Origin: Promethearchaeia archaeon
GTDB lineage: Archaea > Asgardarchaeota > Lokiarchaeia > Sigyniarchaeales > SOKP01
DNA: 64,000 bases
Direction of reading: 5' to 3'
Assembly: GCA_029856145.1 (NCBI GenBank)
Contig: JAHQWK010000020.1
Location: forward strand, 32,001 to 96,000
Each line of letters begins with the position of its first letter. Positions within the stretch are counted from its first letter, which is position 1. A program made the translations under genes and the position numbers. Below, piece by piece: positions 23,018 to 43,390 of this stretch. Below the pieces are notes generated by a model, which made no database searches, was not told the origin of the DNA, and saw nothing but the letters and a program-made list of their open reading frames with translations.

Positions 23018-26000
23018 TTATTTTTTTAATTTCCATTGTCTTTTACCCATTTTTGATTCAACTAGAACTTTTTCTTTACGTTCTAATTCCTTGAGTTTAA
23101 GCTGGAGATATCGGGCATCCATCATATCTTTAATTTTTAATTTGAAAATGAGATGCTTAATAGTTTGCCATTCATCAGATAAAACATTTAATATTTTTTC
23201 AGTTGTTATGATAGGTAATGTAGTTTGTTTTTGTTTTGGGGGTACTGGTTTATGTATAGGTGGAGTCTTTTTAGGAGTTACCTTACTTGGCGTTTTTCCT
23301 TTAGAAATTGGCAATTGCACTTGTTTTACAGGTATAGTATAGGGACTAACTTTAACTGGTTCTGGAGGTTTTAATTCTATTGGTTTTACTTCAATAGGTT
23401 TTTTATATGATTCTATAATTTTGCCAATAATAACTGTTTTTGTGTCTTTAGATAATAGGCTAATATTATAATCATTACAATATTCAATTAATTCGGTTTT
23501 TGTCCAATTTTTAAGTGTTTTCTCAGTGAATAATTCTTTTTTAGTTTCAACTTTCTTAGCAACTGGTTGTAATTCAGAGGGTTTTTCTATCACTTTTTCC
23601 TTTTTAATAGCAGTTTCTTTAATTTCTCTTGCTTCTGAAGATTTCACAACAGGCGTAGGTTTTTTACCTATTGCGTTCCTCATTAAATCTTCCAATTCTT
23701 TTTTGTCAAGCTTAGATTTATGTATACTCTCACCTTGAGACGCAATATTATATAGGCTGTTAACAAATATTGGTATATATTTTTCTATTAGGCTAGCTCT
23801 CTTTTCGCTTTTACGAAGATTTGCTTTTCTATTGAGATATATTCTTAATCTTCTTCCTATTGCTTCAAGGCAAAACTTAATTTCTTTTATTAAATTTTCA
23901 TCATCAGCCAATGCGTTTTTTGATTGGGATTTAAACATTAAATGCACAAAAGGTCCAGAAACATTAACTAATAATTTTATTGGTCCTTTTGGCAAGCTAT
24001 TATCATAAGTATCAAGGTTGTAGTTTTTCCAATTAACTGCTTGAACTGCTTTTGTGATAGCGCAATCTGCACTATCTCTTAATTTCGGTGTTCTATTTAC
24101 AAATCTAGATAAAACATCCCTAGACCGTTTGGGAACTTCTAAATTTCTTGAATAAGCCAGTACAGCTTCTACAACATAAGCTAAACCTTTTCCACTTGTG
24201 GGTGCTCTTGTTTCTGCTGCTACAAAATCATCATCCTTCGTATAGTTTTCAATGAAATATTCAAATACACCATGGTAGGTATCTATAGAATCTATGTCAG
24301 AGTAAGTGAGAAGATCATCAATAACTTGTTTTACTTGCTGTTGATCCGTTATTTCATCAACGATATCAATGGTTCCCAATATCTCTGAACCTAAATTAAT
24401 GACCTCTTCTGGATTTATTGAAATGTTAATGATTGCATCATCATCAATCTTGATCCCTTCTTCTAATAACGTTCTCTTTTTGTCTTCATGTAATAATTCA
24501 AATATCTGATTAATTTTATCAACGGGTCCAGCAAAGTCATCTATATTTTCTGAAATTCTTAATCCAATTTCTTTAATTAAAGTATTCTCCAGAGTTGAGC
24601 CCCCTACTGGAATTGCTGTGTCCGTTGGAGGAGCCATATACTTGATAGATTTAAACGCTAGGAATAGAGAATTAAACTGTTCTTTTGTTAATTCAATAGG
24701 TTTAACTTTAGATATAAGGACTTTATTAATAAGATCTTCAAAATCTGTTCTGTTTTTTAACTTTTTTAACTCAATCAATCCTTCTTTTGAGTCTTTAAAC
24801 AATGTGTTTAAATCTACTTTAATTTTATCCTTTTGATTTCTAATATCATCTATCTCTTTCAATAATTTTTTAATTTCTCTTTCAATATTCTTTATTTCTT
24901 TTTGAGTTTCAGTTTTTTCAATACGTTTATTTAGTTTCTTTATTTCTTTGTTTATTTTTTCGTAATCTTTATTGGATTTATTGTAATTAGTGATTAATTT
25001 CCAATAATTTTCTTTTAGATCTTCTGATGCGACTTGATAAATAATTAATTTATCTCTCGGTTTATCAGAACGACCGAAAACCCGTTTTTCATTTATCATA
25101 AAGTTTATTGTATCTGTCTTTTTCTGTGCTAAATTCACAAATCCCTCTTTTAGAATAAGTAAATTTAATCGGTCCTGAAGATCTCTTTCAGCAATATAAA
25201 TAATTTCTTTAGCTGTTTTTGAACTCATTCTTACAAAATTATCTTGTAAAAATGCAGAAATTGATTTATTTTCTGATTTTGTAATTAAATCTTGTAGGTC
25301 CCCTATATTAACTGAGGAAGGATGAGACTTAGCATATTTAGGTTCGTCTGGGAAAGAAGTTGCTAATCTTCGGTAAATTTTCTCCTTTCCCTCTGGATCA
25401 ATATAAATAATTGTCACATGAGGATTCATAAATGCAGTTTCTTCAATATATTTCTCAACATAACCTCTGACATATTTTACATTTAAATAATTCAATTTAA
25501 TATAAGTACCATGAAGAAAAAAGCTGTCAATATCTGTTGGATGAATTAAATACTTTTTCTCATTTTTAGATGTGGTAAAAAATTCTGTTACTGTAGCATA
25601 AACATTGTCAATTGATTTTGATACTGTGATAATAGGTTTACCAGTTGTATTTTGAGCATCGCTAAACGCGCTTGGGGCTCCAAATCCTTGACTACCTCTA
25701 GTTTGCTTTAATTCCATAGATTTTGATGAGGCGAGATATTTTCCAAATTTTCTTAGATCAATTTTTGACATTCCAGTCCCATTATCGAAAATTTCAAAAG
25801 TATAACTCATGATATTTTTCTGACTGATTTCAGACGTTAAAAAAGATTGTGCTTCATATTCTCTAATACGAACCCCCACTATTGGTTCTACATCAATGAT
25901 ATATTCAACGGGTTTAATGATTTCTTGCATATCATCTATTATTCTTCTAACTTCTTCTTCTACTTCCAATTCTTCTTTATCACTTATTTCTCCAGATTCT

Positions 26001-26386
26001 TCCTCTTTTTCTTCTGGCACTTGAATACTAGATTGGTCTGGTTCAACAGATTCAATACCTAATTCCTGCATTAACGTATGTTTTGCTTCATTATTTAAAG
26101 TTTGAGATTTTTTTTCTTCTTTTACTGTTTCAAGTATAGAAAATTTTTCTAAAAATAATTCTTGGTCTAATGAAAATTTAATTTTGGAATCTGGTTTTTT
26201 CAATTCTTTCCATTGAAAACTTTCGATGGCATCTAAGGCATTATCAATAAATTCAGCACAATATTGAACATGTTTCCAATAGCCAAATTCGAAACCAACT
26301 AGTTGAGTCCGCTTACGCATAAACTCAGCTATTGTTCCTTGCTTTATTTTTCCTTCTTCTTTTGAAGTAATTTTGGACGCACTCGT
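23018..26386 (-). CDS. top6B: DNA topoisomerase VI subunit B, greatly enlarged (more than 1100 aa)
   Basis: GHKL motifs EFIDNALDA, DNGTGM, TRGSQGFG; H2TH; transducer RFVNRTPKL, VNWKNYNL, FKSQSK. The conserved strap (KIKQGTIAEFMRKRTQLVGF) begins upstream of ATG 26320, so the start is placed tentatively at ACG 26386 (or ATT 26395). Confidence 0.92.
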   Translation of the reverse strand, partial: TSASKITSKEEGKIKQGTIAEFMRKRTQLVGFEFGYWKHVQYCAEFIDNALDAIESFQWKELKKPDSKIKFSLDQELFLEKFSILETVKEEKKSQTLNNEAKHTLMQELGIESVEPDQSSIQVPEEKEEESGEISDKEELEVEEEVRRIIDDMQEIIKPVEYIIDVEPIVGVRIREYEAQSFLTSEISQKNIMSYTFEIFDNGTGMSKIDLRKFGKYLASSKSMELKQTRGSQGFGAPSAFSDAQNTTGKPIITVSKSIDNVYATVTEFFTTSKNEKKYLIHPTDIDSFFLHGTYIKLNYLNVKYVRGYVEKYIEETAFMNPHVTIIYIDPEGKEKIYRRLATSFPDEPKYAKSHPSSVNIGDLQDLITKSENKSISAFLQDNFVRMSSKTAKEIIYIAERDLQDRLNLLILKEGFVNLAQKKTDTINFMINEKRVFGRSDKPRDKLIIYQVASEDLKENYWKLITNYNKSNKDYEKINKEIKKLNKRIEKTETQKEIKNIEREIKKLLKEIDDIRNQKDKIKVDLNTLFKDSKEGLIELKKLKNRTDFEDLINKVLISKVKPIELTKEQFNSLFLAFKSIKYMAPPTDTAIPVGGSTLENTLIKEIGLRISENIDDFAGPVDKINQIFELLHEDKKRTLLEEGIKIDDDAIINISINPEEVINLGSEILGTIDIVDEITDQQQVKQVIDDLLTYSDIDSIDTYHGVFEYFIENYTKDDDFVAAETRAPTSGKGLAYVVEAVLAYSRNLEVPKRSRDVLSRFVNRTPKLRDSADCAITKAVQAVNWKNYNLDTYDNSLPKGPIKLLVNVSGPFVHLMFKSQSKNALADDENLIKEIKFCLEAIGRRLRIYLNRKANLRKSEKRASLIEKYIPIFVNSLYNIASQGESIHKSKLDKKELEDLMRNAIGKKPTPVVKSSEAREIKETAIKKEKVIEKPSELQPVAKKVETKKELFTEKTLKNWTKTELIEYCNDYNISLLSKDTKTVIIGKIIESYKKPIEVKPIELKPPEPVKVSPYTIPVKQVQLPISKGKTPSKVTPKKTPPIHKPVPPKQKQTTLPIITTEKILNVLSDEWQTIKHLIFKLKIKDMMDARYLQLKLKELERKEKVLVESKMGKRQWKLKK

Positions 26387-26646
26387 ATGATTAATTCTTC
26401 ATTTAACATTATTACAACAATCTATAAATATATATACATCTATTAGTAAATTAATTGACAAAACTATAAGATATTATATATATATCTTAATTCCATAGTT
26501 TTCAATTATCTACTCGAACTTTACAATATTATTCACTGTTTACAGTAAATAAACTAATATTTAAATATTTTCATCAGATTTTAAATCATAAAAATAAGTA
26601 AGTATACATCCGAAAAAAATTTTCAAAAATCCATTTAAACTTAATT

Positions 26647-27933
26647 TTAAGAATTCCTTTTTTGATAAGCTTCAATGGCAATATCAATTATTTTCGATGC
26701 AATATATCTTTTAGTATTTCTCTCAACATGAGTAATACGTTTTTTTTTATCTATAATAAATACCTCATTATACTTACTGCTAAAACCAATATCTTCTCTT
26801 CCAATATCATTTGCCACAATTAAATCAACCTCAGATTTAAGGAGTCTATTATAGGCACGTTCTATTAATTCACTTTTAGAAACATTTGTTTCTGCTTTAA
26901 ATGCTACAATAAATAAGTTATAATCTTTTTTCCTTGCAACATTTATTATTTTTGGTGTTAACTTCATATTAACTTGTAGTTCTTCTACATTATCGGAAGA
27001 TATTTTTCCCTCAATATATTCAATTGGTTTATAATCACTTACAGCAGCTGCTGAAATGAAAAAATCATAATTATTTAATGAGATTTCATCTTTAACTGCT
27101 TTTATAAAATCGTCTGTTGAAATAACGTGTCTAGTTTTTATATAATTTGGAAGTTTTACCATACATTCACCAGCAATTAACATTACATCAGCTCCTCTAG
27201 CAGAAGCTTCTTTGGTTAATTCTACACCCATTCTTCCTGATGATTTATTTGAAACGAATCGAACTGAATCTATTGCTTCTCTTGTTGGACCCGCGGTAAT
27301 AAGTATTTTCTTTCCTTCTAAATCTTTCTCAGTAACTAATAAATCTATAACCCTATCAATTATGTCATCAATTTTAGCAATCTTAGCTTTACCTTCTGAA
27401 ATTCTAGGACCTAAAATTTCAACACCATATTCACGCAATTGTCTTTCATTTTTTTCTAAAATAGGGTGTTTGTACATGCTCTCATGCATTGCAGGTACGA
27501 TTACTAGAGGTAAGGACGACCCAAATGCCGTTGATGCGACCGTTGTAACAGGTGTATCGTCAACCCCACAAGCTATTTTTGAAATTGTATTTGCCGTAGC
27601 AGGACATATTAATACTAAATCAGCCTTTCCAACACTTCTTGGTCTATCACCTGCTAGATAAACATGTTCAACAGCACCTGTCAATTTTGTGATTACTTTA
27701 TTTCCTGTAGCCCATTCCATTAAAGCGGGATTCATCAATTCTGTAGCTGCTTTAGACATTACACAGATGACTTCGGCACCTAATCTCATAAGTTCTCGGG
27801 CTACTATGGGAGAAGAAATTACAGCTACTGACCCAGTTAGACACATACAAATTGTTTTTCCTCTAAGGATTGTTCCCTTACTTTCAGCAATATCCTTTGA
27901 GGGGTGTTGAAAATTATTTTTTGTCATATTCAA
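26647..27933 (-). CDS. coaBC: Bifunctional phosphopantothenoylcysteine decarboxylase / phosphopantothenate-cysteine ligase
   Basis: TGSVA, PATANTISKIACG, PAMHESMY, ITAGPTREAIDSVRFVSNKSSGRMG, AAAVSDY, FKAET, IVAND. Confidence 0.96.
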   Translation of the reverse strand: MNMTKNNFQHPSKDIAESKGTILRGKTICMCLTGSVAVISSPIVARELMRLGAEVICVMSKAATELMNPALMEWATGNKVITKLTGAVEHVYLAGDRPRSVGKADLVLICPATANTISKIACGVDDTPVTTVASTAFGSSLPLVIVPAMHESMYKHPILEKNERQLREYGVEILGPRISEGKAKIAKIDDIIDRVIDLLVTEKDLEGKKILITAGPTREAIDSVRFVSNKSSGRMGVELTKEASARGADVMLIAGECMVKLPNYIKTRHVISTDDFIKAVKDEISLNNYDFFISAAAVSDYKPIEYIEGKISSDNVEELQVNMKLTPKIINVARKKDYNLFIVAFKAETNVSKSELIERAYNRLLKSEVDLIVANDIGREDIGFSSKYNEVFIIDKKKRITHVERNTKRYIASKIIDIAIEAYQKRNS

Positions 27934-28188
27934 ATAATTATTATTTACTAATTTTCAATTAAACTTTCAGATTCTATGTAAATAAAATTTATGCTTTAAT
28001 AAAAAAAATTATGATACAATTATTACTATTCTCTTGAAAATTCAATTTCAATTTTACAATAAAGTGGAAATAATGACTGTTTTTTACTAATTCTTACAAT
28101 TTTCTATAATCCTATTTTTTATTTATGATTTTAAATAAGTTAATCGAAATATTATTACAAGTTTCTTCAACTAAATTAATTAAAAAAT

Positions 28189-29379
28189 ATGAATAAAATC
28201 TGTGATTTACATATCCATAGTAAATTTTCAGGAGGAGCAAGCAAAAATATTGATGTTTATAAAATTGCCTTTAATTGCAATATGAAAGGAATTCAATTAG
28301 TAGGAACTGGAGACTGTCTCCACCCATTATGGTTAATTGAATTAAAGAATAATTTAATTGAATATTCAAATGGAATATACTGTACTCCAAAAATACCAAA
28401 TGTGAATTTTATATTACAAACAGAAATTGAAGCAACTTGGAAAAATAATTCAAACGTCAAAAAGGTACATTTCGTCCTTCTTTTTCCAAATTTTGAAAAA
28501 TTAGATGAATCTATTAAGTTTCTATCCAAATTTGGTAATTTAGCAAAAGATGGTAGACCAAAGATCTATAAATCTGCAGAGAGTCTTATTTTTGGATTAA
28601 AATCAATTGATGAGGATATTGAGATAATTCCTGCTCATATATTTACTCCTTATTTTGGTATATTTGGCGATAAACCTCATTTCAATACTATGAAAGAAGC
28701 TTTGGGTTATGGAATGAATTATATTAATTGTATTGAAACGGGATTAAGTGTCGATCCCTTAATGGTGAGAAGTATTTCAGAATTAAATAAAGTGTCAATT
28801 ATATCTAATTCTGATTGTCATTCTACAAATTTTCATAGATTAGGAAGAGAAGCTACAACGATTAAGCTTAATAAATTAAATTACCATAATCTTGTAGATT
28901 CAATTAAAAGAAACAAAATTATTAAGACTTACGAGTTTAAACCATCACAGGGGAAATATTACTATGATGGTCACAGACCAGAACGACATTTTGATAATAA
29001 AGATTATTATTGTAGCCCAAAACTTAATATTGACATTTGTCCTTATTGTAAAAAAAAATTAACAAAAGGGGTATTAGCTCGAGTCCAAGATTTAAGCGAT
29101 CAAATAAATCCTTTCAAACTAAATTTTCAATATATTGTCCCAATATTGCACCTAATTTCAGTTGTATTAGGAGGATCTGAATATGATAGAAGAAACTTAT
29201 CGATATACCAAAAATTAATTGAAAATAATGATGGTGAATATGCTATATGGGAAGGTAAAAGTAATTTTGATAATATACCTGAAAATTTAATTGAAGCAAT
29301 TCATAAAATTAGGAATGGAAAATTCTGGTTTATACCCGGTCATGACGCTGTTTATGGAAAATTACAATTTGAAAATTAA
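28189..29379 (+). CDS. Endonuclease Q family (PHP domain plus zinc finger) DNA repair nuclease
   Basis: DLHIHSKFS, GTGDCLHP, PAHIFTP, ETGLS, SNSDCHS...GRE, GKYYYDGH, CPYC...KGV, PGHDAVYG. Confidence 0.88.
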   Translation: MNKICDLHIHSKFSGGASKNIDVYKIAFNCNMKGIQLVGTGDCLHPLWLIELKNNLIEYSNGIYCTPKIPNVNFILQTEIEATWKNNSNVKKVHFVLLFPNFEKLDESIKFLSKFGNLAKDGRPKIYKSAESLIFGLKSIDEDIEIIPAHIFTPYFGIFGDKPHFNTMKEALGYGMNYINCIETGLSVDPLMVRSISELNKVSIISNSDCHSTNFHRLGREATTIKLNKLNYHNLVDSIKRNKIIKTYEFKPSQGKYYYDGHRPERHFDNKDYYCSPKLNIDICPYCKKKLTKGVLARVQDLSDQINPFKLNFQYIVPILHLISVVLGGSEYDRRNLSIYQKLIENNDGEYAIWEGKSNFDNIPENLIEAIHKIRNGKFWFIPGHDAVYGKLQFEN

Positions 29380-29387
29380 AGCAGTAT

Positions 29388-31742
29388 TTAATTTTTAGTG
29401 TCAATAATATTTAGTTTCAGATTTAATTTGGAACTAAAATCGCGAAATTTCTTAAAATTATCAGGTTGAAGATTTAATTTTTCCTTAAATTGAAGAATTT
29501 TAAAGAATTTTCTACCATAATATGTCTTACAAATTTCAGATATATCATAAAAAACTCTACCTTTATCATACAATCTAAAAATTTCAGAAGATTCAAACTC
29601 GTCTTTTCGAATTTCAAGAATTTTGTTAGAATATTTAAAAAAGGGTGTATGTTGCATTTTTTTCAAATCAAATATTATCGTACTTCCAAGCTTACGTGTA
29701 TTTAATAAGTCTTTAATAATAGAATGGATTTCATTTAAAAATCTTGACTTAAATTCTTTTAGATTAATATTTGGATAAAGAGATCTTTTTAATATTTCAG
29801 CATAGGGTAGATCTAATCCAGCTAATTCGCTATTTAAATTTAATAAAGTTAAAATTTGGTTTGTATTAAGATAAATATCATTTTTCAATTCTTTAAAGAT
29901 CTGATCTCTTTCATTAAAAATATAATCTAATAAAAATTTATTAAATGCTTTAATAAAGGCGTTATAATTAGGTACAAATAATCTATTTGGTTTTTTAACC
30001 ACAATTTCATTTGCTTGAAAAGGATTAATCTCTTTATTCAATACTGCCCTTATAAGTGATAATGGATAATATCCTTCAATAAATTCCATGCCTTTAGAAA
30101 TACTTTTAATAGCATCTTTAAATGAACATTTTATAATTACGTTAATTGTTTTAATGATATTACTTTCAATTTTAATGGGTGTTTTTTTACAATAACAAAG
30201 ATCAAATGGTTTTAAATCATGAAACAATGGATTATTGTAATCAGGAATAATTATTTGAGCCCCGTAAGCATTAACGAGACTGCCTTGAATTGGCCTATTT
30301 GCTAGATCCCATTCAATAACCATTACATCTTCTGAATCTTTATGAACTTTATCATAACTATATTCTATATTTTCACTTTGTAATGATAAACCATCAATTG
30401 ATCTTATTTCATAATCATTAATTTCTCCCCAGAATTGTTGCCTATAATAATATACGTCTTGAAAACTACTAAGATCATCTAAAAATAATTCTTTCATTAT
30501 AAAATAATTGATCCCTATTTCAGAAGATTTAATTGTTTGATCATTTAATCCAAAAAAGCCAATACGGGAGACTATATAATGATATACAGGATTATTTAAA
30601 TTTTTTTCATCATGTTTCACTATATATGTGTTTCTTTTTTTCCTAAACTCTCCCTTAGCTCTTATAATGTTATGTTTTTCTATTAATAACTTTAAAAAAG
30701 AAAATTTTTTGAGGTAAACTTTTCTTTCCAATTCCTTAATTTCTATTTTGTACTTCTTATATTCATCGTAATACTCTTCCTTTGGAATGTTTATGATTCG
30801 AAATTGCTTTTTCATTAACTTTAGTTTATCAATTACACAGAAATTATCGATTTCAGAATAAAAATAGTTTAATAGTTTGGTTTTTAGAGAATTTAACGAA
30901 ACCTCAGATATTAAATCCTTAAATAAAGGATTAAGCTTAACTAATTCGTCAAAATTCTTCTTTACTAGATAGAGAGAAAAATAATGATCATTAAAACTTG
31001 AACTATTTACCAAAGTTTTTAATTTATCAAAATGGGATGCTATAAACGAAATGTTTTTAAAATTCAGTATTCTATTAATAGATTCAATAATTTTAAGAAG
31101 ATTGAAAAAAGAATATTCTGGTATAATATTTAGAAATTTCTTGAATCCTTTTTCTATATAGGCATTAAATGTCAGAAAATAATTTTGTAAATCATTCTCG
31201 TACCCATTTTCTAGAAACTTAAAAAATTCTATAAATAAATTATTGTTAATGGCTGTATTCAGGTAAGTTTTAATTATATTTTCTGTTTCAAATTGATTAT
31301 TAATCGCTTTATTCATATAATTTAGAGCTTCTACACAATTATTACTTTTGAAGCAACTATTAGCTAATAGTAGAAAGTTTTTACTTTTTTTCTGTGAGCC
31401 TAAATCTTCAGAGGTTAAAAGATAACTCTTAAAATTCTCTAAAATCTTTTGAGCAAGATTATTCTTAATTATTGATAATAATTTTATTAAATGAACACAG
31501 ATTTTTTTGTTTTTTTCAGAATGAATAAGAAATGATGGACAATCATGAAAAATTTCATTATTCTTTTCATCTATAATAAGATGAAATTCACGCTCATTAT
31601 CTAATATAAGACTTCTAATTAGTATTGGATCTTCTTCAATATCAATTAAATTGATTTTATTGGAAAGAAATTTAAGTGATTTTTGATATAAATTTAAACC
31701 AAATTTATCAATTACAAGACTTGATATTGAATTATCAACCAT
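29388..31742 (-). CDS. Uncharacterised protein with N-terminal SWIM-type zinc finger
   Basis: HDCPSF...KICVHLIKLL SWIM-like motif. 4 nt downstream of the VWA gene. Confidence 0.7.
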   Translation of the reverse strand: MVDNSISSLVIDKFGLNLYQKSLKFLSNKINLIDIEEDPILIRSLILDNEREFHLIIDEKNNEIFHDCPSFLIHSEKNKKICVHLIKLLSIIKNNLAQKILENFKSYLLTSEDLGSQKKSKNFLLLANSCFKSNNCVEALNYMNKAINNQFETENIIKTYLNTAINNNLFIEFFKFLENGYENDLQNYFLTFNAYIEKGFKKFLNIIPEYSFFNLLKIIESINRILNFKNISFIASHFDKLKTLVNSSSFNDHYFSLYLVKKNFDELVKLNPLFKDLISEVSLNSLKTKLLNYFYSEIDNFCVIDKLKLMKKQFRIINIPKEEYYDEYKKYKIEIKELERKVYLKKFSFLKLLIEKHNIIRAKGEFRKKRNTYIVKHDEKNLNNPVYHYIVSRIGFFGLNDQTIKSSEIGINYFIMKELFLDDLSSFQDVYYYRQQFWGEINDYEIRSIDGLSLQSENIEYSYDKVHKDSEDVMVIEWDLANRPIQGSLVNAYGAQIIIPDYNNPLFHDLKPFDLCYCKKTPIKIESNIIKTINVIIKCSFKDAIKSISKGMEFIEGYYPLSLIRAVLNKEINPFQANEIVVKKPNRLFVPNYNAFIKAFNKFLLDYIFNERDQIFKELKNDIYLNTNQILTLLNLNSELAGLDLPYAEILKRSLYPNINLKEFKSRFLNEIHSIIKDLLNTRKLGSTIIFDLKKMQHTPFFKYSNKILEIRKDEFESSEIFRLYDKGRVFYDISEICKTYYGRKFFKILQFKEKLNLQPDNFKKFRDFSSKLNLKLNIIDTKN

Positions 31743-31746
31743 TTTT

Positions 31747-34236: not shown

Positions 34237-34240
34237 TAAT

Positions 34241-35182
34241 TTATCCTCCTAGGGTTTTATGAATGATATTCTCTATTATATTTTCGACTTTTACTCCAGG
34301 TTTAGGTTTTAAACTTCCAAGTAGAACGTGCCGAGCAATTTCAGAAAGATAAATATACTCAGATTCTTTTTCTTTGACTTTTTTTTCTTTCTCTATAATT
34401 CTTTTTCTTGCTAATAATTTAGCAATAGCAATTCCTGCTCTTATAGAAGCAGGAATTTCAATATCGATTTTATTTTGTCTAGTTTCTTTAATAATTGAAT
34501 AAATTAATTCTAATTCAGATTCTTCAATAATAAAATGTTCAGGCAAATTAATTCTTATAATATCTAATTCTGTTGACTTATCAGGATAAGTTAATTTGAT
34601 CCAAACTTTTATTCTATCTTTTAAAGCTTCAGATAAGCGATGAGTTCCTGATAGTTCTTCAGGGTTCATTGCACATATAAAGAAAAAATCATTATCAGCC
34701 TTTATTCGCCCTAGATGAGCGATTCCTATAGATGCTTCTTCTAGAGGTTCTAATAAAGTATTTTGAGAATATTCTGTAGCCCTATTAATTTCATTAGCTA
34801 AGAAAGTACCCCCTTCTAACATAGCATTTAATAATGGTCCAGGATTAAAAGCTTCAAGTACAAATCCTTTCTTTAAAGTTATAGCGGGATCAAATGAACC
34901 AACAAAATGAGAAGGTTTAATGCTCTCATCCATTGTTAACCATTGAAAACTCTTGTTTTTGTTCTCCTTCGCTCTTAAACTAGCAAAATATCGACACAAT
35001 ATAGTTTTTCCAACACCGGGAGGCCCTACTAAAGCAGGAAATAATCCTGTAGATTCTGCATCTCTTAATAATTCTAGAGCTTTACCATATTGACCTGAAA
35101 GAACTATATCAATTTGTTCTTCAGTAATATCCTTAATTAGATGTTGGTTAAATAATTCTTCAAATCTTTGTTTATTTATCAT
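34241..35182 (-). CDS. MoxR-family AAA+ ATPase (CoxD/YehL-like subtype)
   Basis: GPPGVGKT, PGPLLNAM, LANEINRA (Walker B Asp replaced by Asn), AMNP, LSEALKDR, SIRAGI. Confidence 0.9.
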   Translation of the reverse strand: MINKQRFEELFNQHLIKDITEEQIDIVLSGQYGKALELLRDAESTGLFPALVGPPGVGKTILCRYFASLRAKENKNKSFQWLTMDESIKPSHFVGSFDPAITLKKGFVLEAFNPGPLLNAMLEGGTFLANEINRATEYSQNTLLEPLEEASIGIAHLGRIKADNDFFFICAMNPEELSGTHRLSEALKDRIKVWIKLTYPDKSTELDIIRINLPEHFIIEESELELIYSIIKETRQNKIDIEIPASIRAGIAIAKLLARKRIIEKEKKVKEKESEYIYLSEIARHVLLGSLKPKPGVKVENIIENIIHKTLGG

Positions 35183-35344
35183 GTTTAAATCTCTGTGGCA
35201 TTTTTACATAAATTAACGATTTTCTTACATGAATATTAAGTGTTTGTTAATATAAAACTTTAAAGTTAATAATTAAAAGATATTATATTTTCTTAACCCG
35301 CTTGATTGAATTTTACATAATTTCTAAGATAAAATTACCTTAAT

Positions 35345-36181
35345 ATGATAAAGCCTTATTTTGATGAGAAAAATTTCATTTTGTATCATGGAGACGCTTT
35401 AGATATTCTTAATCAATTTGAAGAGAGAAAATTTGATTTAATATTTGCTGATCCACCTTATTTCTTATCAAATAATGGAATTACGTGCAAATCAGGCAAG
35501 ATGGTTTCGGTTAATAAAGGGGAATGGGATAGATCAAAAGGTTTCGATGAGGATATTAAATTTATTGATTCTTGGTTAAAAGCTTGTAAAAGAATTTTAA
35601 AAAAAAATGGTAGTTTATGGGTTTCTGGAACTTTTCATATTATCTATAAAGTAGGTTATCTATTAGAAAAAAATGGTTATGATATTATTAATGATATCGT
35701 AATGTATAAACCAAATGCTCCACCTAACTTATCATGTAAATATTTTACACATAGCCATGAAATAGTATTATGGGCTCGCAAATCTAAAAACTCACATCAT
35801 ACATTTAATTATGAGAAATTGAAGACTTGGAATAACCCCAAAGATAAATTGAAGAATAAGGATAAGCAAATGAGAAGTGTTTGGTCAATTCCTTTAATGC
35901 CTAAAGATGAGAAAGAATATGGTAAACATCCAACCCAAAAACCATTGGAGTTGTTAAACAGAATAATATCATCCTCCTCGAATGAAGGTGATTGGGTATT
36001 AGATCCTTTTGCAGGAGCCGGTACTACAGGAATTGTATGTAGTATTTTAAATCGAAAATTTATTGGAATCGACTCGAATGAAGAATATTTGGATATAGCA
36101 ATTAAAAGATTTAGAGACAAAAAAAAAGAGGATCTATTATTTTCTCCTAAAACTAAAAATCATTTGATGAAATTTATTTAA
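35345..36181 (+). CDS. Site-specific DNA amino-methyltransferase (beta class, DpnA/DpnIIB-like), orphan
   Basis: DPPY catalytic motif, LSNNGITCKSGKMVSVNKGEWD, HPTQKP, LDPFAGAGTT. Confidence 0.92.
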   Translation: MIKPYFDEKNFILYHGDALDILNQFEERKFDLIFADPPYFLSNNGITCKSGKMVSVNKGEWDRSKGFDEDIKFIDSWLKACKRILKKNGSLWVSGTFHIIYKVGYLLEKNGYDIINDIVMYKPNAPPNLSCKYFTHSHEIVLWARKSKNSHHTFNYEKLKTWNNPKDKLKNKDKQMRSVWSIPLMPKDEKEYGKHPTQKPLELLNRIISSSSNEGDWVLDPFAGAGTTGIVCSILNRKFIGIDSNEEYLDIAIKRFRDKKKEDLLFSPKTKNHLMKFI

Positions 36182-36290
36182 ATCTACTAAATTCCAGAAT
36201 TTCTATGAAAAAATATAATAAAAACGTTTATTAAATAAAGCAATTTTAAATTTAGTAAAACTAAATAGTTGACTATAATTAGGGATATAA

Positions 36291-38669
36291 ATGCAATTAG
36301 AACAGATTCATCTTTTAAATTATAAAGAACGTACACTAAGAATGAAAAATAAGTTAATTAAAACACCTCAGGAAATTTGTGTAGAAAGAGCTAGATTAAT
36401 TACAGAATTCTACAAAAATACTAAAGGAGAGAACCCAATTATTAGGTTTGCGAAAGCTATGGATTATTATTTAACAAACATGACAATTAAAATATGGAAA
36501 GATGAATATATAGTCGGTAATAGATGTACGAAATATGTAGGCACACCTATGTATCCTGAAGCTCGGATAGATACAATAGAACAAGATATTGACAATTATG
36601 ATACTCGTCCCGTGCAAAAACTTTTCTTAACAAATGAAGAAAGACGAGTTATAAAAGAAGAAATAATTCCTTATTGGAAAGAAGAAGAAATTACTGTGCA
36701 AGAGCGATTCCAATCTTATTTAGACTCAGATTTAAGAGATATAATGGAAAAACTAGTTTTTACTGTAGATGTGGAACTTTCTAGTGGAATTGGTCATTTT
36801 TTTCCTGGACATGAAAATGTATTAAAAAATGGAATCAATGGTTTAATTAAAAAAACAAGTGAGAGTTTAGAGAAAATCTCCACTGACAAAGATAAAAAGA
36901 CTTTCTTAGAATCAGTACTCATTTTACTATATGCTGTTAAAAAATTCATACAGAGATTTTCAAATTTAGCGAGAAAAATGGCGGAGAATGAACAAAATCC
37001 TGAACATCGGAAAGAGCTTAATAATATCTCCGAAATTTGTGAAAATATTTCTGGTAATCGTCCAAAAAGCTTTGAAGAGGCGCTACAATTAATTTATTTT
37101 ACTCATCTAATAAGTGGTCTAGAAGATGGTGGTTTTGCCATTTCAGTAGGTCGATTAGATCAGTATTTATATCCATATTATTTAGAAGATATTAAAAAGA
37201 GAAATATAACAAAAGAAAAAGTGCAGTTTCTTATTGAGTGTTTTTTCATCAAATTATCTACATTATGGAATTATGCTATTTCAAAAGGAGTAGTAGCTGT
37301 GGAAGGGCCTCCTATTGCTGAAAATATGGTAATTGGTGGATTAGATCGTGAAGGGAAAGACGCCTTAAATGATTTATCTTTAGTTATTTTAGATGCATAT
37401 ACTCATATTAAAACTGTTCAACCAACTTTTTGTGTTAGGATACATAAAGATACTTCAGATGATTTTCTTATAAAAGTTGGAGAATCCATAAAAGCTGGTA
37501 CTAGTATTGCTCTATTCAATGATAATGTAATGATCCCTGGACTTATTAATCGAGGATTTACTCATGAAGATGCTCGAGAATATGCGCCAATAGGATGTGT
37601 TGAGCCTCAACATCCCCATAAATCATATGGTTCGACAAATGCAAATCAATTTAACGTAGTGAAATGCTTAGAATTAACATTAAATAATGGAGTTGATATG
37701 CTAACTAGGAAAGAATATGGACTTAAAATTGGTAAAGAGATTACTTCTTATGAAGATCTATTGGATGCTTTTAAGAATCAAGTCAAATTTTTCATTGATT
37801 ATATGGTGAAAACAATGTATTTACTCGATAAAGCAATTGCTGAACTTACTCCTCAACCATTTTTATCTGCAACTATAGATGATTGTATTGGGCGTGGTCT
37901 TGATATAACCAAAGGTGGAGCAATTTATGATTTCACAGGACCACAACTTATAGGTTTAGCAACGGTTGCGGATAGTCTTGCTGTAATTAAAAAAGTTGTT
38001 TTTGAAGAAAAACTCTTAACTTTTAAAGATTTAGTTCAAATGCTTGCTAAGGATTTCAGAGGTGTATATCAAGAAAGAAAAGGAACAGAATGGCGGGAGA
38101 TTTTTATAAATAAAGTACCAAAATTTGGAAATGATGATGATTACGTTGATCAGATAGCTGTAGATATTTCAAAATTTTATTGTGAAGAAATTTCAAAACA
38201 TTCAAATTATCGAGGAGGGAAGTTTAATCCTGGATTTTATTCTACTACATTCCATTTGGCATTTGGCATTTTTACAGGAGCTTCTGCTGATGGCAGACAA
38301 AAAACAGATCCTCTTTCAAATGGTCTTGGTCCTACAAGTGGTATGGATAAAAACGGTCCCACAGCAATTCTTAATTCTATTAAAAAACTCAATAATAAGT
38401 TAATGACAAATGGTAATTCACTAATATTATCTTTTCACCCAAAAACATTGAAATTAGAAATTTTAGTACCCCTTATTAGAACTTTTTTTGAACCTGAAGG
38501 CGGTTATCAAGTACAATTTAACATTGTAGGAAAAAAAACTCTATGTGATGCTCAAATAAATCCTAATAATTATAGAGGGTTAGTTGTCAGAGTTGCAGGA
38601 TATTCAGTCTATTTTACAGAGTTGTCGAAAAGTGCCCAAGATGAAATTATTGCTCGAACTGAATATTAA
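36291..38669 (+). CDS. Glycyl radical enzyme (PFL2 / glycerol dehydratase-like family)
   Basis: ERARLIT, SVGRLDQYLYP, Cys loop GCVEP, KFGNDD, GASADGR, C-terminal VRVAGYS glycyl radical motif. Confidence 0.95.
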   Translation: MQLEQIHLLNYKERTLRMKNKLIKTPQEICVERARLITEFYKNTKGENPIIRFAKAMDYYLTNMTIKIWKDEYIVGNRCTKYVGTPMYPEARIDTIEQDIDNYDTRPVQKLFLTNEERRVIKEEIIPYWKEEEITVQERFQSYLDSDLRDIMEKLVFTVDVELSSGIGHFFPGHENVLKNGINGLIKKTSESLEKISTDKDKKTFLESVLILLYAVKKFIQRFSNLARKMAENEQNPEHRKELNNISEICENISGNRPKSFEEALQLIYFTHLISGLEDGGFAISVGRLDQYLYPYYLEDIKKRNITKEKVQFLIECFFIKLSTLWNYAISKGVVAVEGPPIAENMVIGGLDREGKDALNDLSLVILDAYTHIKTVQPTFCVRIHKDTSDDFLIKVGESIKAGTSIALFNDNVMIPGLINRGFTHEDAREYAPIGCVEPQHPHKSYGSTNANQFNVVKCLELTLNNGVDMLTRKEYGLKIGKEITSYEDLLDAFKNQVKFFIDYMVKTMYLLDKAIAELTPQPFLSATIDDCIGRGLDITKGGAIYDFTGPQLIGLATVADSLAVIKKVVFEEKLLTFKDLVQMLAKDFRGVYQERKGTEWREIFINKVPKFGNDDDYVDQIAVDISKFYCEEISKHSNYRGGKFNPGFYSTTFHLAFGIFTGASADGRQKTDPLSNGLGPTSGMDKNGPTAILNSIKKLNNKLMTNGNSLILSFHPKTLKLEILVPLIRTFFEPEGGYQVQFNIVGKKTLCDAQINPNNYRGLVVRVAGYSVYFTELSKSAQDEIIARTEY

Positions 38670-38754
38670 TCTTATTTTTTTAAAAATCTAAGAAAAACAA
38701 TAAAAATTTTAGTTATTCTAATTTTAACAATATAAATATATAAAAAATATAGTT

Positions 38755-38856
38755 GGGCCTGTAGATCAGTGGAAGATCGCTTGATTTCATTAAGCAAGAC
38801 GCTTAATTTCAAGATTCGCATTCAAGAGGTCACGGGTTCAATTCCCGTCAGGTCCA
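38755..38856 (+). tRNA. tRNA-Ala (anticodon CGC) with a 30-nt intron at position 32/33 (38786-38815); CCA not encoded
   Basis: Acceptor stem GGGCCTG/CAGGTCC with G3:U70 and A73 (Ala identity), D arm GATC/GATC, T arm ACGGG-TTCAATT-CCCGT. Removing 38786-38815 restores CTTGA-TTCGCAT-TCAAG. AT-rich TATA-like sequence at 38731-38745. Confidence 0.92.
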
Positions 38857-38888
38857 TTCTATTTATACACATCTAAAGAGGATTTTAT

Positions 38889-41489
38889 ATGGCACAAGGA
38901 ACAATTTATCCAAAAAGGTACAATTTTAAAGCGGTTCAAGAAAAGTGGATAAAATATTGGGATGAAAATAAGATATATGCATTTAATAAAGACCGAACAG
39001 ATGAAATTTTTACTATTGATACACCACCTCCCTTTGTAAGTGGAGTTTTACATATAGGACAATATCTAAATTACGCTTGGATTGATTTTGTAGCAAGGTA
39101 CCGTCGAATGAGAGAACAAAATGTATATTTTCCTCAAGGATGGGATTGTCATGGATTGCCTGTTGAGTTAGCAGTCACAAAGAATTATGGAATTTCTAAA
39201 GATGATCGAGAAAACTTCTTAGAGAAATGTAGAGAATGGGTAGAGAATAACATTGAAAATATGACAAAGCAATTGAATGATTTAGGGTATTCGACTGATT
39301 GGGAATATACTTATAGAACGATGAATGATGACTACAAACGAAAAGTTCAACTTTCACTCTTAGAATTCTATGAAAAAGGTATGCTTTATAGAGATAAATT
39401 TCCAACTCATTTCTGTGTAAATTGTGAAACATCTGTTGCAAAAGCAGAAGTAGGTTATCAAGAAGAGTTAGGAAAATTATGGTACATAAAATTACCAATT
39501 GTAGAGAGAGAAAATGAGTTTATTACTATTGCTACAACACGTCCTGAATACATGGAAGCTTGTGTTGCCGTAGTGATTCATCCAAATGATGAACGTTATT
39601 ACGACATTTCTGCTGCTAAAATAGAAATTCCATTCACGAATAGAACCGTTCGCGTTTATATGGATCCTTCAATTGATATGAATTTTGGTACTGGAGTTGT
39701 TTATGTCTGTACATATGGAGATGAAATGGACATTAAATGGAAAATTGAATATGACTTGGATGAGATCCAAATCTTTACTGAAGATGGTCATATGAATGAA
39801 AATTCTGTATATCAAGGTTTAACCATTATGGAAGCACGAGAGCAAATAGTTAAAGATCTTGATAAAAAAGGATTAATTGAAAAAATTGAAGACTATGAGC
39901 ATAATTTAATAATTCATTCAGAACGGTCATCTTGTAGAAAGCCAATAGAATATTTACCAGTCTATCAGTGGTTTATAAATGTGAAGGATTTTACACAGGA
40001 AATTATTGAATCTGGAGAAATTATGAAATGGTATCCTGAAAAACAAAAACAAAGATTAATAGATTGGGCAGAAGGATTAGATTGGAACTGGGTTATTTCA
40101 CGTCAGCGCTTTTTTGGTACCCCTATTCCATTTTGGTATTGCAAGGATTGCGGTGAAATTATCCCACCTAAAAGAGAGGATTTACCATTAAATCCTGTGA
40201 AAATTTCACCACCTATTAACCAGTGTTTAAAATGTAAAAGTAAAAATATCATAGGTGAAAACGATGTCTGTGATTGTTGGATTGATTCTAGTCTTACTCC
40301 CCTAGAAATATCAAAATGGACAGAAGATAATGAATTTTTTAAAAGAGCTTATATGGATGCTAAAGTTCATCGATCACAGGGTTATGAAATCATCCGTACT
40401 TGGTTGTTTTACACCTTATTTCGATGTAAAATATTAACTGGAAAAGCTCCTTTTTATGAAGCAATGATTAATGGAATGGTTGCTGGCCCAGATGGAAGAC
40501 ATATGTCAAAGAGTCTCGGGAACTATATTGCACCAGAGGAAGTGATGCCTGAATTTGGTTCTGATGCCATAAGATATTGGACAGCCATGGGTTCTTTAGG
40601 TGACGATTATCCGTTTGAATTTACTTGGATAAATCAACAAACTAAACAACCTGTTTCAGATAATTTTATTCTGAAAGAAAAACAAAAACTTCCAGAAGAT
40701 AAATTTAATAAGAAATACAGGAGAAAGTTTGAACAATTAATTGGTGCTTCAAGATTTTTAACTAAAATTTGGAATGCTTACAGATTTTTATTTTTAAATA
40801 TGAATAAGATTAAGATTGATAACATTAATGTTAATCCTAATGAACTATCAGCTATAGACAGTTATTTCTTTTCAGAATTTAACAAAAATTTAGATAAAAT
40901 TACAAAATATTTTGAGGAATATAATTGGCATGGAGCTATGATGATTTTACGTACTTTTTTCTGGAATGAGATTTGCGATAATTATGTTGAAGCAATAAAG
41001 CATAAATTTTATTCTAAAAATCAAGAAACGCGAGAGATTTCCTTAAAGAATGCATTAAACCTTTTTTACAAATTATTAACCATATCATCTGTTATAATGC
41101 CATTTATTTCAGAAGAAATTTACTCAATTCTCTATAAACAATTTAAACATCTAAAATCTGTTCATATAGCGAAATGGCCATTGCACTATGAAACGATTTC
41201 AGAAGATTCAGCTAATAATGGAAAATTAATTATTGAAATAATTAAAGTTCTAAGGATGCAAAAATCAAAGCTTCAAATACCTTTAAACCAAAGTATAAGA
41301 AAAGTCATTTTGATTTCAGATACAAATCAACTGAAAAAGATTGATAAATTAAAAAAAGATATTAAACAAACTCTTAGAATAGATAATTTAGAAATAATTG
41401 AGAAATCTCAGGAAAATAATATTAAAGAAAAATCAGATTTAAAACAAATTATTGAGGATTTGAATATCACAGTCTATTTTTTTAAGTAA
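38889..41489 (+). CDS. valS: Valyl-tRNA synthetase (archaeal type)
   Basis: DTPPPFVSGVLHIG, GWDCHGLPVE, ATTRPE, WVISRQRFFGTPIP, QGYEIIRTW, HMSKS. Confidence 0.95.
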   Translation: MAQGTIYPKRYNFKAVQEKWIKYWDENKIYAFNKDRTDEIFTIDTPPPFVSGVLHIGQYLNYAWIDFVARYRRMREQNVYFPQGWDCHGLPVELAVTKNYGISKDDRENFLEKCREWVENNIENMTKQLNDLGYSTDWEYTYRTMNDDYKRKVQLSLLEFYEKGMLYRDKFPTHFCVNCETSVAKAEVGYQEELGKLWYIKLPIVERENEFITIATTRPEYMEACVAVVIHPNDERYYDISAAKIEIPFTNRTVRVYMDPSIDMNFGTGVVYVCTYGDEMDIKWKIEYDLDEIQIFTEDGHMNENSVYQGLTIMEAREQIVKDLDKKGLIEKIEDYEHNLIIHSERSSCRKPIEYLPVYQWFINVKDFTQEIIESGEIMKWYPEKQKQRLIDWAEGLDWNWVISRQRFFGTPIPFWYCKDCGEIIPPKREDLPLNPVKISPPINQCLKCKSKNIIGENDVCDCWIDSSLTPLEISKWTEDNEFFKRAYMDAKVHRSQGYEIIRTWLFYTLFRCKILTGKAPFYEAMINGMVAGPDGRHMSKSLGNYIAPEEVMPEFGSDAIRYWTAMGSLGDDYPFEFTWINQQTKQPVSDNFILKEKQKLPEDKFNKKYRRKFEQLIGASRFLTKIWNAYRFLFLNMNKIKIDNINVNPNELSAIDSYFFSEFNKNLDKITKYFEEYNWHGAMMILRTFFWNEICDNYVEAIKHKFYSKNQETREISLKNALNLFYKLLTISSVIMPFISEEIYSILYKQFKHLKSVHIAKWPLHYETISEDSANNGKLIIEIIKVLRMQKSKLQIPLNQSIRKVILISDTNQLKKIDKLKKDIKQTLRIDNLEIIEKSQENNIKEKSDLKQIIEDLNITVYFFK

Positions 41490-41510
41490 TAGAGATTTTT
41501 CAACAATTAT

Positions 41511-42320
41511 TTATCCTTCTCCTTCTTCATTTCCGTGTAGAGATTCAGTTTCAGTAGAGAGTTCATTATCATCTGGGGTTTCACTACTCGATACTTCTTC
41601 AATTCCTAATTGTGTAACCATAGCACGTTTCAAATCAGTTTTATTTTTTGGTAACCCAAACATATCTGCATATTTATCAGTGGTGGTTAGTTCGTGGGAT
41701 CTTCCCTTTTTTACAGCATTTATAAACCCATTATCTATGAGATATTTTACATGTTCATATGCGCCAGTACCTCTCAATTTAATAACCATTGATTTCAAAA
41801 CTGGCTGCTTCAAAGCAATAACTGTTAAAGTTCTCAAATATCTTTCTGCTATTGCTCCTCCTTTAGCAAATTTAGAAACTTTTTCAGTATATTCTGGTTT
41901 AATTTGCATTTGATATCTATCTCCAATTTGTGCAATGACAAGAGCAGTAGAGCGTTCTAAATAATCAAAAGCTACTTCATTTACTAATGCTTCCACTTCT
42001 TTCTTAGGAAGTTCCAATTTTGTCGATATTTCTTCTATGGTTAGGGGTCTTCCAGCAGCGTACAAAGAAGCTTCAATTAAATTTCGATGGAAAATCCTTA
42101 CTTGGTTTTTTAATAATTCTTCATCAAGAATTGTGGTTTCCGAAGTGTCTTCAATCAAATTGGTTTGTAAATCATCTTCTATATCTTCGGCTTCCTCAAA
42201 TTCTTCTATTAATGGAGTTTCTGATTTTAAACTAGATTCTCCACTTAAATTAATTTCTTCTATTTTTTCTAAATCTTCTTCTTGTTTATCATCAAGAGCA
42301 TTTTCGTGATTTTCTTCCAA
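41511..42320 (-). CDS. scpB: Segregation and condensation protein B (kite subunit) with acidic N- and C-terminal tails
   Basis: IEASLYAAGRPL, LRTLTVIALKQPV, LRGTGAYEHV, TTDKYADMFGL. GGTGA SD before TTG. Confidence 0.93.
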   Translation of the reverse strand: MEENHENALDDKQEEDLEKIEEINLSGESSLKSETPLIEEFEEAEDIEDDLQTNLIEDTSETTILDEELLKNQVRIFHRNLIEASLYAAGRPLTIEEISTKLELPKKEVEALVNEVAFDYLERSTALVIAQIGDRYQMQIKPEYTEKVSKFAKGGAIAERYLRTLTVIALKQPVLKSMVIKLRGTGAYEHVKYLIDNGFINAVKKGRSHELTTTDKYADMFGLPKNKTDLKRAMVTQLGIEEVSSSETPDDNELSTETESLHGNEEGEG

Positions 42321-42361
42321 ATTATCACCATATTTTATAATTAATCCAATAAATTTAGTTT

Positions 42362-43363
42362 TTATTTAACATTGACACTAAAATCTTGAAAATCTTCAAC
42401 TTGAGACAGAGTTAATTTATTCCCAGTTGATAGGAACATTAATGCTAGAAACATACGGACAAAAGAAAATATCCGCCCAATACCACTTTTCTCTTCATTT
42501 TTAATAATATCTGCCAATTCGTAAAATGTAGGTTCTTTATTATTTAGATTAATCGTAGCCTTAATTCGATTGTACCATGATTCATGCAGTTCTTCTACTG
42601 TTTGTTCTCTTCCGCTTATATGTTTAAGAAGTTCTTTAGGGAGTTGTGCTTTAGATTTCATTTGAATCCTTTGTTGTTTTATTTCTTCTTTTCTCATTCG
42701 TCTTCTTCTTAGTTTTTCTTTATTCTGCATAACTTCTATAATAGCAGATCTCATAGCATCAAATAATTCATCTTTTGTGGCTATTTGCATTTTAGGTTGA
42801 ATTGGTTGAGGTAATGCTTTTGGAATGGTCCTACCATGTGCTTGCCTGAATCTCTCCAACTCTTCTCTTTTTTGAATTTGTTCCTCTTCTCTAATTATAC
42901 TTGAAATTTTATAATGATGTAAAACTGCAGAAGTTTTAAGCGCAATTCCCGAAATTTTATAATTTATCAAGTCTTCGTGGAGCATTTTATCGAAAAATTC
43001 ATCAACTAATTTTGCTAAATCATAAAACGCAATTTCTGATTCTTTTGCTATTTCCGAATCTAATAGACTCGAAAATGGTGGTTTTTGCCAGAATTTTAAT
43101 TCAAGCTTTTCTTTCCTCAATAAAGCAAGATCTTCCTCATCATCAAATCCAGCAACTAGTTCTTCTTCTACTTCTTCAATTTCTTGAGATCTATCTGTAA
43201 ATTCAGGATGGGATACGACCTCTTGAAGTAAATCAATTATTTCTTTTTTCTTAGATTTAGAAGGTATTTTTATATTATTTTTCGAGGCAAATTCCTTGAG
43301 TTGTTTAACAGTCCAATCATTAAAATTATATTTTTTAGTAGAATTTTGTTCATTTTCTGATAT
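42362..43363 (-). CDS. scpA: Segregation and condensation protein A (kleisin) with an extra N-terminal HeH/SAP-like module
   Basis: Kleisin N-domain (YDLAKLVDEF...SGIALKTSAVLHHYK) and C-terminal FLALMFL...LSQVEDFQD. The frame is open 81 codons upstream of TTG 43120 to ATA 43363, 6 nt after a GGTGA SD; in-frame TGA lies within that SD. Confidence 0.85.
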   Translation of the reverse strand: MSENEQNSTKKYNFNDWTVKQLKEFASKNNIKIPSKSKKKEIIDLLQEVVSHPEFTDRSQEIEEVEEELVAGFDDEEDLALLRKEKLELKFWQKPPFSSLLDSEIAKESEIAFYDLAKLVDEFFDKMLHEDLINYKISGIALKTSAVLHHYKISSIIREEEQIQKREELERFRQAHGRTIPKALPQPIQPKMQIATKDELFDAMRSAIIEVMQNKEKLRRRRMRKEEIKQQRIQMKSKAQLPKELLKHISGREQTVEELHESWYNRIKATINLNNKEPTFYELADIIKNEEKSGIGRIFSFVRMFLALMFLSTGNKLTLSQVEDFQDFSVNVK

Positions 43364-43390
43364 ACAATATCACCATTTTATATAATTTAA

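What the first reader, a model, noticed from the sequence alone, without database searches (positions are those of the whole stretch)
23410..43320. The same HeH/SAP/Rho-N-like motif is appended to both Topo VIB and the condensin kleisin
Seen: the ScpA N-terminus WTVKQLKEFASKNNIKIPSKSKKKEII (about 43235-43315, hidden upstream of the track ORF) aligns without gaps to the Top6B tail WTKTELIEYCNDYNISLLSKDTKTVII (about 23425-23506), 11 of 27 identical. Known: this pattern fits helix-extension-helix domains (SAP/LEM/Rho-N), which tether eukaryotic proteins to chromatin; SMC and type II topoisomerases cooperate in segregation. Inference: a shared targeting tag co-localising condensin and Topo VI, which may be an undescribed Asgard chromosome-organisation system.
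Basis: partly seen in the sequence, partly recalled or inferred. Interest (0 to 1): 0.82.

Follow-up and report, generated by a model that had tools for sequence, protein, structure and literature searches.

The report
Swappable DNA-tether domain on Asgard proteins
In one family of Asgard archaea a small, known type of nucleic-acid-gripping domain (HeH/SAP) really does sit on both the chromosome-folding kleisin ScpA and topoisomerase VI, but it also sits on actin regulators and other proteins and is freely lost or swapped, so it looks like a general add-on DNA tether rather than a dedicated condensin-topoisomerase address tag.

Summary
Observation confirmed. Both segments are where stated (11/27 identical). 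Pairwise identity alone is marginal, but profiles from orthologs show homology (hhalign 98.7%), and the predicted fold is HeH (SAP/LEM/Rho-N). The hidden ScpA extension is very probably translated from an ATA start: conserved GGTGA spacing, ATG in relatives, dN/dS 0.09.

The motif is confined to one Promethearchaeia (Loki) family (36/40 genomes versus 2/160 other Asgard). It also occurs on gelsolin-X proteins, RadA, a GIFT-domain protein and others. ScpA and Top6B copies are no closer to each other (34%) than to gelsolin copies (40%). Top6B lost it about six times while ScpA kept it. The ScpA slot is filled instead by (HhH)2, a zinc finger or a lysine-rich tract in sister lineages.

Best reading (0.6): an interchangeable, non-specific nucleic-acid tether that aids DNA capture, like Ku70's SAP domain; on ScpA it may offset a hinge-less SMC. 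No binding has been shown. No paper describing it was found; this scan reached a similar verdict on another genome (e1-5498632).

The parts
43211..43327 (-). HeH (helix-extension-helix) domain at the ScpA N-terminus, residues about 13-51
   Evidence: Pfam Ish1 31.3 bits, above cut-off 26.6; Rho_N, HeH, SAP weaker; AlphaFold two helices, pLDDT 87-89; dN/dS 0.09 over 29 orthologs
43361..43374 (-). Shine-Dalgarno-like GGTGA (43374-43370), 6-nt spacer and inferred ATA start codon (43363-43361) of scpA
   Evidence: ATA/ATT/ATC followed by a Ser codon at this place in 27 of 29 genus orthologs, ATG in one; 24 of 29 have no canonical start upstream of the motif; ATG starts in genera g18, g21, g23, g24. 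Inferred, not shown by proteomics
42362..43363 (-). scpA, full length (333 aa): HeH, acidic flexible linker, kleisin N-domain, long helix, C-terminal winged helix
   Evidence: Ortholog profile hits Pyrococcus ScpA-N 6IVH E=9e-9 and ScpA/Scc1 C-domains; model's best fold match is ScpA cWHD 4I99; linker residues 62-86 pLDDT<50
23402..23518 (-). HeH domain in the Pro/Lys/Glu-rich linker of Top6B
   Evidence: 17 of 20 ortholog segments hit Rho_N, 15 SAP; hhalign to ScpA HeH 98.7%; dN/dS 0.16-0.23
23021..23209 (-). Conserved C-terminal domain of Top6B, winged-helix-like by pattern (fold not tested), present across the order whether or not HeH is present
   Evidence: Seen in f1-f4 orthologs; dN/dS 0.05; no Pfam hit
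23018..26371 (-). top6B, about 1117 aa, inferred ATT start at 26371
   Evidence: NCBIfam PRK04184 above cut-off; two orthologs have ATG at the same codon
21823..23004 (-). top6A
   Evidence: Pfam TP6A_N and TOP6A-Spo11_Toprim above cut-off
43391..47842 (-). smc, 1483 aa, no recognisable hinge domain
   Evidence: TIGR02168 above cut-off; PF06470 hinge not found in this gene, only in a second SMC on contig C9
41511..42320 (-). scpB with acidic N- and C-terminal tails
   Evidence: Pfam SMC_ScpB E=3e-33; TIGR00281 above cut-off

Best explanation
The motif is a mobile HeH-fold mini-domain that the ancestor of most of this Promethearchaeia family inserted into flexible tails of several proteins. It most likely works as a low-affinity, sequence-independent nucleic-acid tether: held on a disordered linker it catches DNA first and raises the local concentration of the core enzyme, speeding loading, as the SAP domain does for Ku70. 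On ScpA some tether appears to be retained in nearly all lineages of the order, but its type is interchangeable; on Top6B it is an optional booster (0 to 4 copies). Shown: homology, predicted fold, coding selection, distribution, swaps. Inferred: translation from ATA, nucleic-acid binding, the loading role.
For: Fold matches SAP, LEM, Rho-N and EndoVII-C domains, rmsd 0.8-2 A over 37-39 residues. The ScpA slot holds HeH in 77 of 83 family genomes, an (HhH)2 domain in 2 (HHH_5 E=3e-13), a C2HC zinc finger in 4 plus one outside the family, and 20-22 Lys/Arg in the first 50 residues in several sister-family genomes: unrelated folds whose common known property is DNA binding. ScpA copies are basic (mean +3.4) and flexibly linked. 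Top6B copy: present in 81 of 106, one gain and six losses by parsimony, tandem copies in four genera. The same subtype is widespread and often repeated in unrelated proteins, including a distant family-B DNA polymerase. Precedent: Ku70 SAP speeds initial DNA binding yet is dispensable in vivo (PMC10681742).
Against: No binding data. HeH folds also bind proteins (emerin LEM-BAF, MANF/CDNF-BiP are among the top structural matches). Top6B and GelB copies are nearly neutral in charge (+0.8, -0.4). Several hosts are not known DNA proteins (gelsolin-X, a membrane-protein tail, an uncharacterised tubby-like protein). Some sister-lineage ScpA extensions are not strongly basic (L085, L090, L091, L095). 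Z-scores of 5-6 for a 39-residue model are modest.
Confidence: 0.6

Rival explanations
1. One reading: a dedicated address tag that brings condensin and Topo VI together as a coupled chromosome-organisation system.
For: In this genome ScpA and Top6B are the only close carriers. Both gains map to the same branch. 57 of 77 genomes have both. The two genes lie about 16-20 kb apart in many relatives.
Against: 15 genomes have it on ScpA only and 2 on Top6B only. Six independent losses on Top6B. ScpA-Top6B identity 34% versus ScpA-GelA 40%, and ScpA copies group with GelA copies in the domain tree (39 columns, weak). Gelsolin-X carries it in 14 of 15 genomes examined in full (10 of these were picked for high copy number). 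Not found in 158 of 160 other Asgard genomes searched.
Confidence: 0.07
2. The HeH is a protein-binding module (as LEM binds BAF or MANF binds BiP) that docks all its hosts, including actin regulators, onto one common nucleoid or scaffold protein.
For: Protein-binding HeH domains are among the best fold matches. Near-neutral charge of Top6B and GelB copies. Non-DNA hosts exist.
Against: Replacement by HhH, zinc finger or Lys-rich tracts is hard to square with one specific partner surface. No candidate partner was identified. The subtype occurs in many unrelated proteins with no similarity to this genome's proteome.
Confidence: 0.2
3. On ScpA the tether specifically compensates for loss of the SMC hinge, a DNA-binding site in Smc-ScpAB (PMC4306524). 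This extends rather than excludes the best explanation.
For: The scpA-linked SMC lacks a hinge hit here and in three genomes of sister families (two full-length at 1498-1509 aa, one 959-aa frame), whereas its orthologs in two class-level outgroups have one, and their ScpA has no extension.
Against: This is a single evolutionary event and five genomes, so it cannot be tested statistically. It does not explain Top6B or gelsolin copies. A divergent hinge could escape the profile.
Confidence: 0.3
4. The Top6B copy is a nearly neutral passenger in a tolerant linker.
For: Repeated loss; degenerate copy in this genome's subclade.
Against: dN/dS 0.16-0.23, below the adjacent linker (0.34 versus 0.23 in the same five genomes); invariant core residues; tandem expansion in four genera.
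Confidence: 0.1

Closest known systems
SAP domain of Ku70 and other eukaryotic SAP proteins (Pfam PF02037; PMC10681742)
   Same: Same HeH fold; small domain on a flexible linker of a DNA-acting machine; patchy presence across lineages (PMC11936186).
   Different: Archaeal hosts; window copies score below the SAP cut-off; DNA binding untested.
Ish1 repeat (PF10281), Rho_N (PF07498), HeH/LEM (PF12949)
   Same: ScpA copy passes the Ish1 cut-off; many orthologs hit Rho_N.
   Different: No nuclear envelope or Rho context; family assignment within the clan is ambiguous.
Prokaryotic Smc-ScpAB, e.g. Thermococcus kodakarensis (PMC11840125), Pyrococcus ScpA (PDB 6IVH, 4I99)
   Same: smc-scpA-scpB cluster; kleisin N-domain and C-terminal winged helix present.
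   Different: 81-residue N-terminal extension with HeH; SMC of 1483 aa with no recognisable hinge; non-AUG start.
Archaeal Topo VI subunit B (PRK04184)
   Same: GHKL and transducer domains; adjacent top6A.
   Different: About twice the usual length, with a long linker carrying 0-4 HeH copies and a lineage-specific end domain.
Asgard 1DGelX/GelX (PMC7444086; bioRxiv 10.1101/2025.11.30.690169)
   Same: One gelsolin domain plus a further domain; profile hits Asgard gelsolin structures 7C2F, 7WHG.
   Different: In this family they end in one or two copies of the same HeH, which those papers do not mention in the passages read; this genome's nearest paralog is short and lacks it.

Membership tests
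HeH clan (SAP/LEM/Rho-N/Ish1) | Two helices joined by an extended linker, about 35-40 residues | tested here: met
   AlphaFold H7-16 and H27-38, pLDDT 89; aligns to SAP, LEM, Rho-N at rmsd 0.8-2 A
HeH clan (SAP/LEM/Rho-N/Ish1) | Profile match above a curated cut-off | tested here: met
   ScpA: Ish1 31.3 > 26.6. Top6B of this genome: not on its own, but 17/20 orthologs hit Rho_N at E<=0.01, best 4e-8
SAP domain in the strict sense (PF02037) | Score above SAP cut-off 23.9 | tested here: not met
   ScpA copy 17.2 bits; Top6B copy no hit
HeH clan (SAP/LEM/Rho-N/Ish1) | Binds nucleic acid or a chromatin protein | not testable with these tools
   Needs EMSA or pull-down
Kleisin ScpA | N-terminal kleisin helical domain and C-terminal winged helix | tested here: met
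   6IVH E=9e-9, 4I99 E=0.005; fold match 4I99 prob 1.0, TM 0.85 by target. Pfam SMC_ScpA itself is below cut-off
Kleisin ScpA | Encoded with smc and scpB | tested here: met
   Adjacent co-oriented genes
Canonical Smc-ScpAB | SMC hinge domain (PF06470) | tested here: not met
   No hit in the window SMC; the profile does detect the second SMC on C9 and 10 of 14 control genomes over cut-off
Topo VI subunit B | GHKL ATPase plus transducer, partner top6A | tested here: met
   PRK04184 323 > 274; PF09239
Dedicated condensin-Topo VI co-targeting system (proposed) | Tag limited to, and jointly retained on, the two partners | tested here: not met
   Other hosts; 17 of 77 genomes have it on only one
Dedicated condensin-Topo VI co-targeting system (proposed) | Physical or spatial coupling in cells | not testable with these tools
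   Needs co-IP or ChIP

The most novel reading that the evidence does not exclude
This Loki family uses one shared HeH tether to gather condensin, Topo VI, RadA and actin-regulating gelsolin-X proteins on the nucleoid, i.e. an independently evolved chromosome-to-cytoskeleton link built from the fold that eukaryotes use in LEM and SAP proteins.
Probability: 0.13. Interest if true: 0.8.

Novelty: new variant of a known kind. Interest (0 to 1): 0.42.

Why it matters
A prokaryotic kleisin with its own exchangeable DNA-binding-type module, paired with a hinge-less SMC, is an undescribed variant of Smc-ScpAB as far as the searched literature shows, and gives a natural swap series (HeH, HhH, zinc finger, basic tract) for testing how SMC complexes first grip DNA. 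The same module on gelsolin-X gives a concrete test of whether Asgard actin regulators touch the chromosome. It is a late, family-specific elaboration, so it says little directly about the eukaryotic ancestor. Practically, AUH starts hide such domains from standard gene callers.

Tried and rejected
Pairwise phmmer between the two segments: no hit, so raw identity was rejected as evidence. PDB sequence search with the HeH profile: best E=0.007 (HI1506), uninformative. Foldseek on the 39-residue model: nothing at E<=0.001. RNA runs: no RNA holder listed, so no read mapping was done. P0068 (PolB with two HeH) was checked as a possible Loki host and rejected: only 26% identity to this genome's PolB over 156 residues. 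One search was an uninformative comparison. A frameshift or sequencing error explaining the missing ATG was rejected because 24 of 29 orthologs also lack a canonical start. The 39-column HeH tree is poorly resolved and is used only as weak support. Ten literature searches found no description of HeH on Asgard ScpA or Top6B; subscription journals are not covered. No complex prediction was run because no binding claim is made.
Full report
Setting. The window is part of a 3.55-Mb, 30% GC genome. Close relatives are recorded as Promethearchaeota/Promethearchaeia MAGs, including Loki_b32. The tools give only coded names: the genome's family is f1, its genus g1.

Observation. Both segments translate as stated and share 11 of 27 residues. 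That alone is marginal: 33 unrelated windows in the genome reach 10/27 and phmmer does not link the pair. Ortholog profiles settle it. A Top6B-only profile finds ScpA at E=1.2e-8 as top non-self hit; hhalign gives 98.7%, E=2e-16. The ScpA copy passes the Pfam Ish1 cut-off and hits Rho_N, HeH and SAP weakly; 17 of 20 Top6B ortholog segments hit Rho_N. AlphaFold gives two helices joined by an extended linker, pLDDT 89, and the top structural matches are dominated by SAP, LEM, Rho-N, EndoVII-C and MANF/CDNF domains at Z 5-6, rmsd 0.8-2 A.

Is the ScpA extension translated? The frame has no ATG/GTG/TTG before the motif. GGTGA lies 6 nt before an ATA; 27 of 29 genus orthologs have ATA, ATT or ATC followed by a Ser codon there and one has ATG; several other genera start with ATG at the equivalent place. 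The 39 codons have pN 0.13, pS 0.65, dN/dS 0.09. Translation is therefore very likely, though not shown. top6B behaves the same way, with an ATT where two orthologs have ATG. In the full ScpA model the HeH is an independent domain followed by a low-confidence acidic linker, then the kleisin N-domain and winged helix.

Distribution. A combined profile hits 124 of 131 f1 genomes and only 2 of 19 others in the order, weakly; across the phylum 36 of 40 f1 genomes and 2 of 160 others. It is therefore not found as an Asgard-wide feature in the genomes searched. Listing all hits in 15 f1 genomes (10 picked for high copy number, 5 for genus diversity) gave ScpA in 11, Top6B in 12 and gelsolin-X proteins in 14 (one judged from its tail only), plus RadA, a GIFT-domain protein, a tubby-like protein, a membrane-protein tail, a DUF11 protein and a more distant Rho_N-SWIM protein. 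Nine further loci from an even draw were also gelsolin-X. The gelsolin assignment rests on hits to Asgard gelsolin structures. This genome happens to lack a gelsolin-X with HeH, which is why ScpA and Top6B look like an exclusive pair here.

The two hosts are uncoupled. Of 77 f1 genomes where both genes could be typed, 57 have HeH on both, 15 on ScpA only, 2 on Top6B only, 3 on neither. On a tree of ScpA core plus Top6B transducer, parsimony needs seven changes for Top6B (one gain, six losses); genera g21, g24, g25 and g26 carry 2-4 tandem copies. These genomes are related, so the counts are descriptive. Mean identity between ScpA and Top6B copies (34%) is no higher than ScpA to GelA (40%) or Top6B to GelB (37%).

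The slot is interchangeable. ScpA begins with HeH in 77 of 83 f1 genomes, with an (HhH)2 domain in both g28 genomes (HHH_5, E=3e-13), with a C2HC zinc finger in all four g19 genomes and one f2 genome, and with Lys-rich, histone-H1-like tracts in many f2 genomes; three class-level outgroups have no extension. Swaps occur on other hosts too: this genome's RadA has a Cys/His finger-like motif where G096 has HeH, and its GIFT-domain protein ends in an unnamed Trp-containing module where G108 and G153 have HeH; that module also occurs twice in the Top6B linker of G051. Convergent use of unrelated folds whose shared known property is DNA binding is the main argument for a generic tether and against a specific address.

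Mechanism. Best reading (0.6): a flexibly linked, weak, non-specific nucleic-acid anchor that helps the enzyme capture DNA. The precedent is Ku70's SAP domain, which speeds initial DNA binding yet is dispensable in vivo (PMC10681742). For ScpA there is a suggestive extra: the linked SMC has no hinge hit here or in three sister-family genomes, while two outgroup orthologs have a hinge and no ScpA extension; the hinge binds DNA in Smc-ScpAB (PMC4306524). That is one evolutionary event and remains an inference. The main alternative (0.2) is protein docking, since LEM and MANF HeH domains bind proteins and the Top6B and GelB copies are nearly neutral.

Novelty. The domain is known and promiscuous (1,810 hits in the global library, many in repeat-bearing unrelated proteins). 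Its fusion to a prokaryotic kleisin and Top6B, and the swap series, were not found in the literature searched. Earlier notes of this scan saw the same features in other genomes, and one follow-up reached a similar verdict; my reading was fixed before I consulted them, except for the hinge-less SMC lead, which I then tested. Verdict: new variant of a known kind, interest 0.42.

Noticed in passing
window 43361-43374 and 26371; genome-wide: Non-AUG (ATA/ATT/ATC) starts look common: 6 nt after GGTGA, 22 of 64 in-frame codons at the head of long ORFs are ATT/ATA versus 9 ATG; 38 long ORFs have an SD-linked ATH at least 15 codons before the first canonical start (crude count).
   Followed up: partly
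window 43391-47842: SMC without a recognisable hinge, also in sister families. A second, hinge-bearing, divergent SMC lies at G000 C9:162922-166386 beside two small genes that look kleisin- and kite-like by eye (untested). G050 and G055 have a third SMC with a strong canonical hinge that was not found in this genome.
   Followed up: partly
G000 C9:441451-441558 (L201), C19:106766-106867 (L204) and six more proteins: A second promiscuous ~37-aa module with a KxAIWxGxxT core and no Pfam match is found in 150 of 151 genomes of the order, up to 17 copies; here on the RNA polymerase A' C-terminus, RHH-like regulators, an ABC ATPase and a membrane protein. Fold and function unknown.
   Followed up: partly
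L314:1492-2943, L315:133-1584 (genus g19): The C2HC zinc finger that replaces HeH on ScpA in g19 is also added to the N-terminus of an aIF2-gamma-like GTPase; g19 has 4-5 copies versus about 2 elsewhere.
   Followed up: partly
L310:1438-1737 (G049): A ~100-aa Lys-rich, histone-H1-like protein with the same zinc finger in the middle: candidate nucleoid protein.
   Followed up: no
G000 C32:65272-65766: The nearest gelsolin-X paralog in this genome stops at about 165 aa, lacking the second domain and the HeH found in most relatives.
   Followed up: partly
window 48019-49209: Divergent Orc1/Cdc6-like gene directly upstream of smc, far below family cut-offs.
   Followed up: no
G000 C9:296915-297865 (L203): Rho_N domain above cut-off fused to a SWIM-like finger; the most plausible older, family-wide carrier of an HeH domain.
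   Followed up: partly
G090 C29 and C91 (L160, L165): Two full-length top6B genes in one assembly, with one and two HeH copies; duplication or bin contamination.
   Followed up: no
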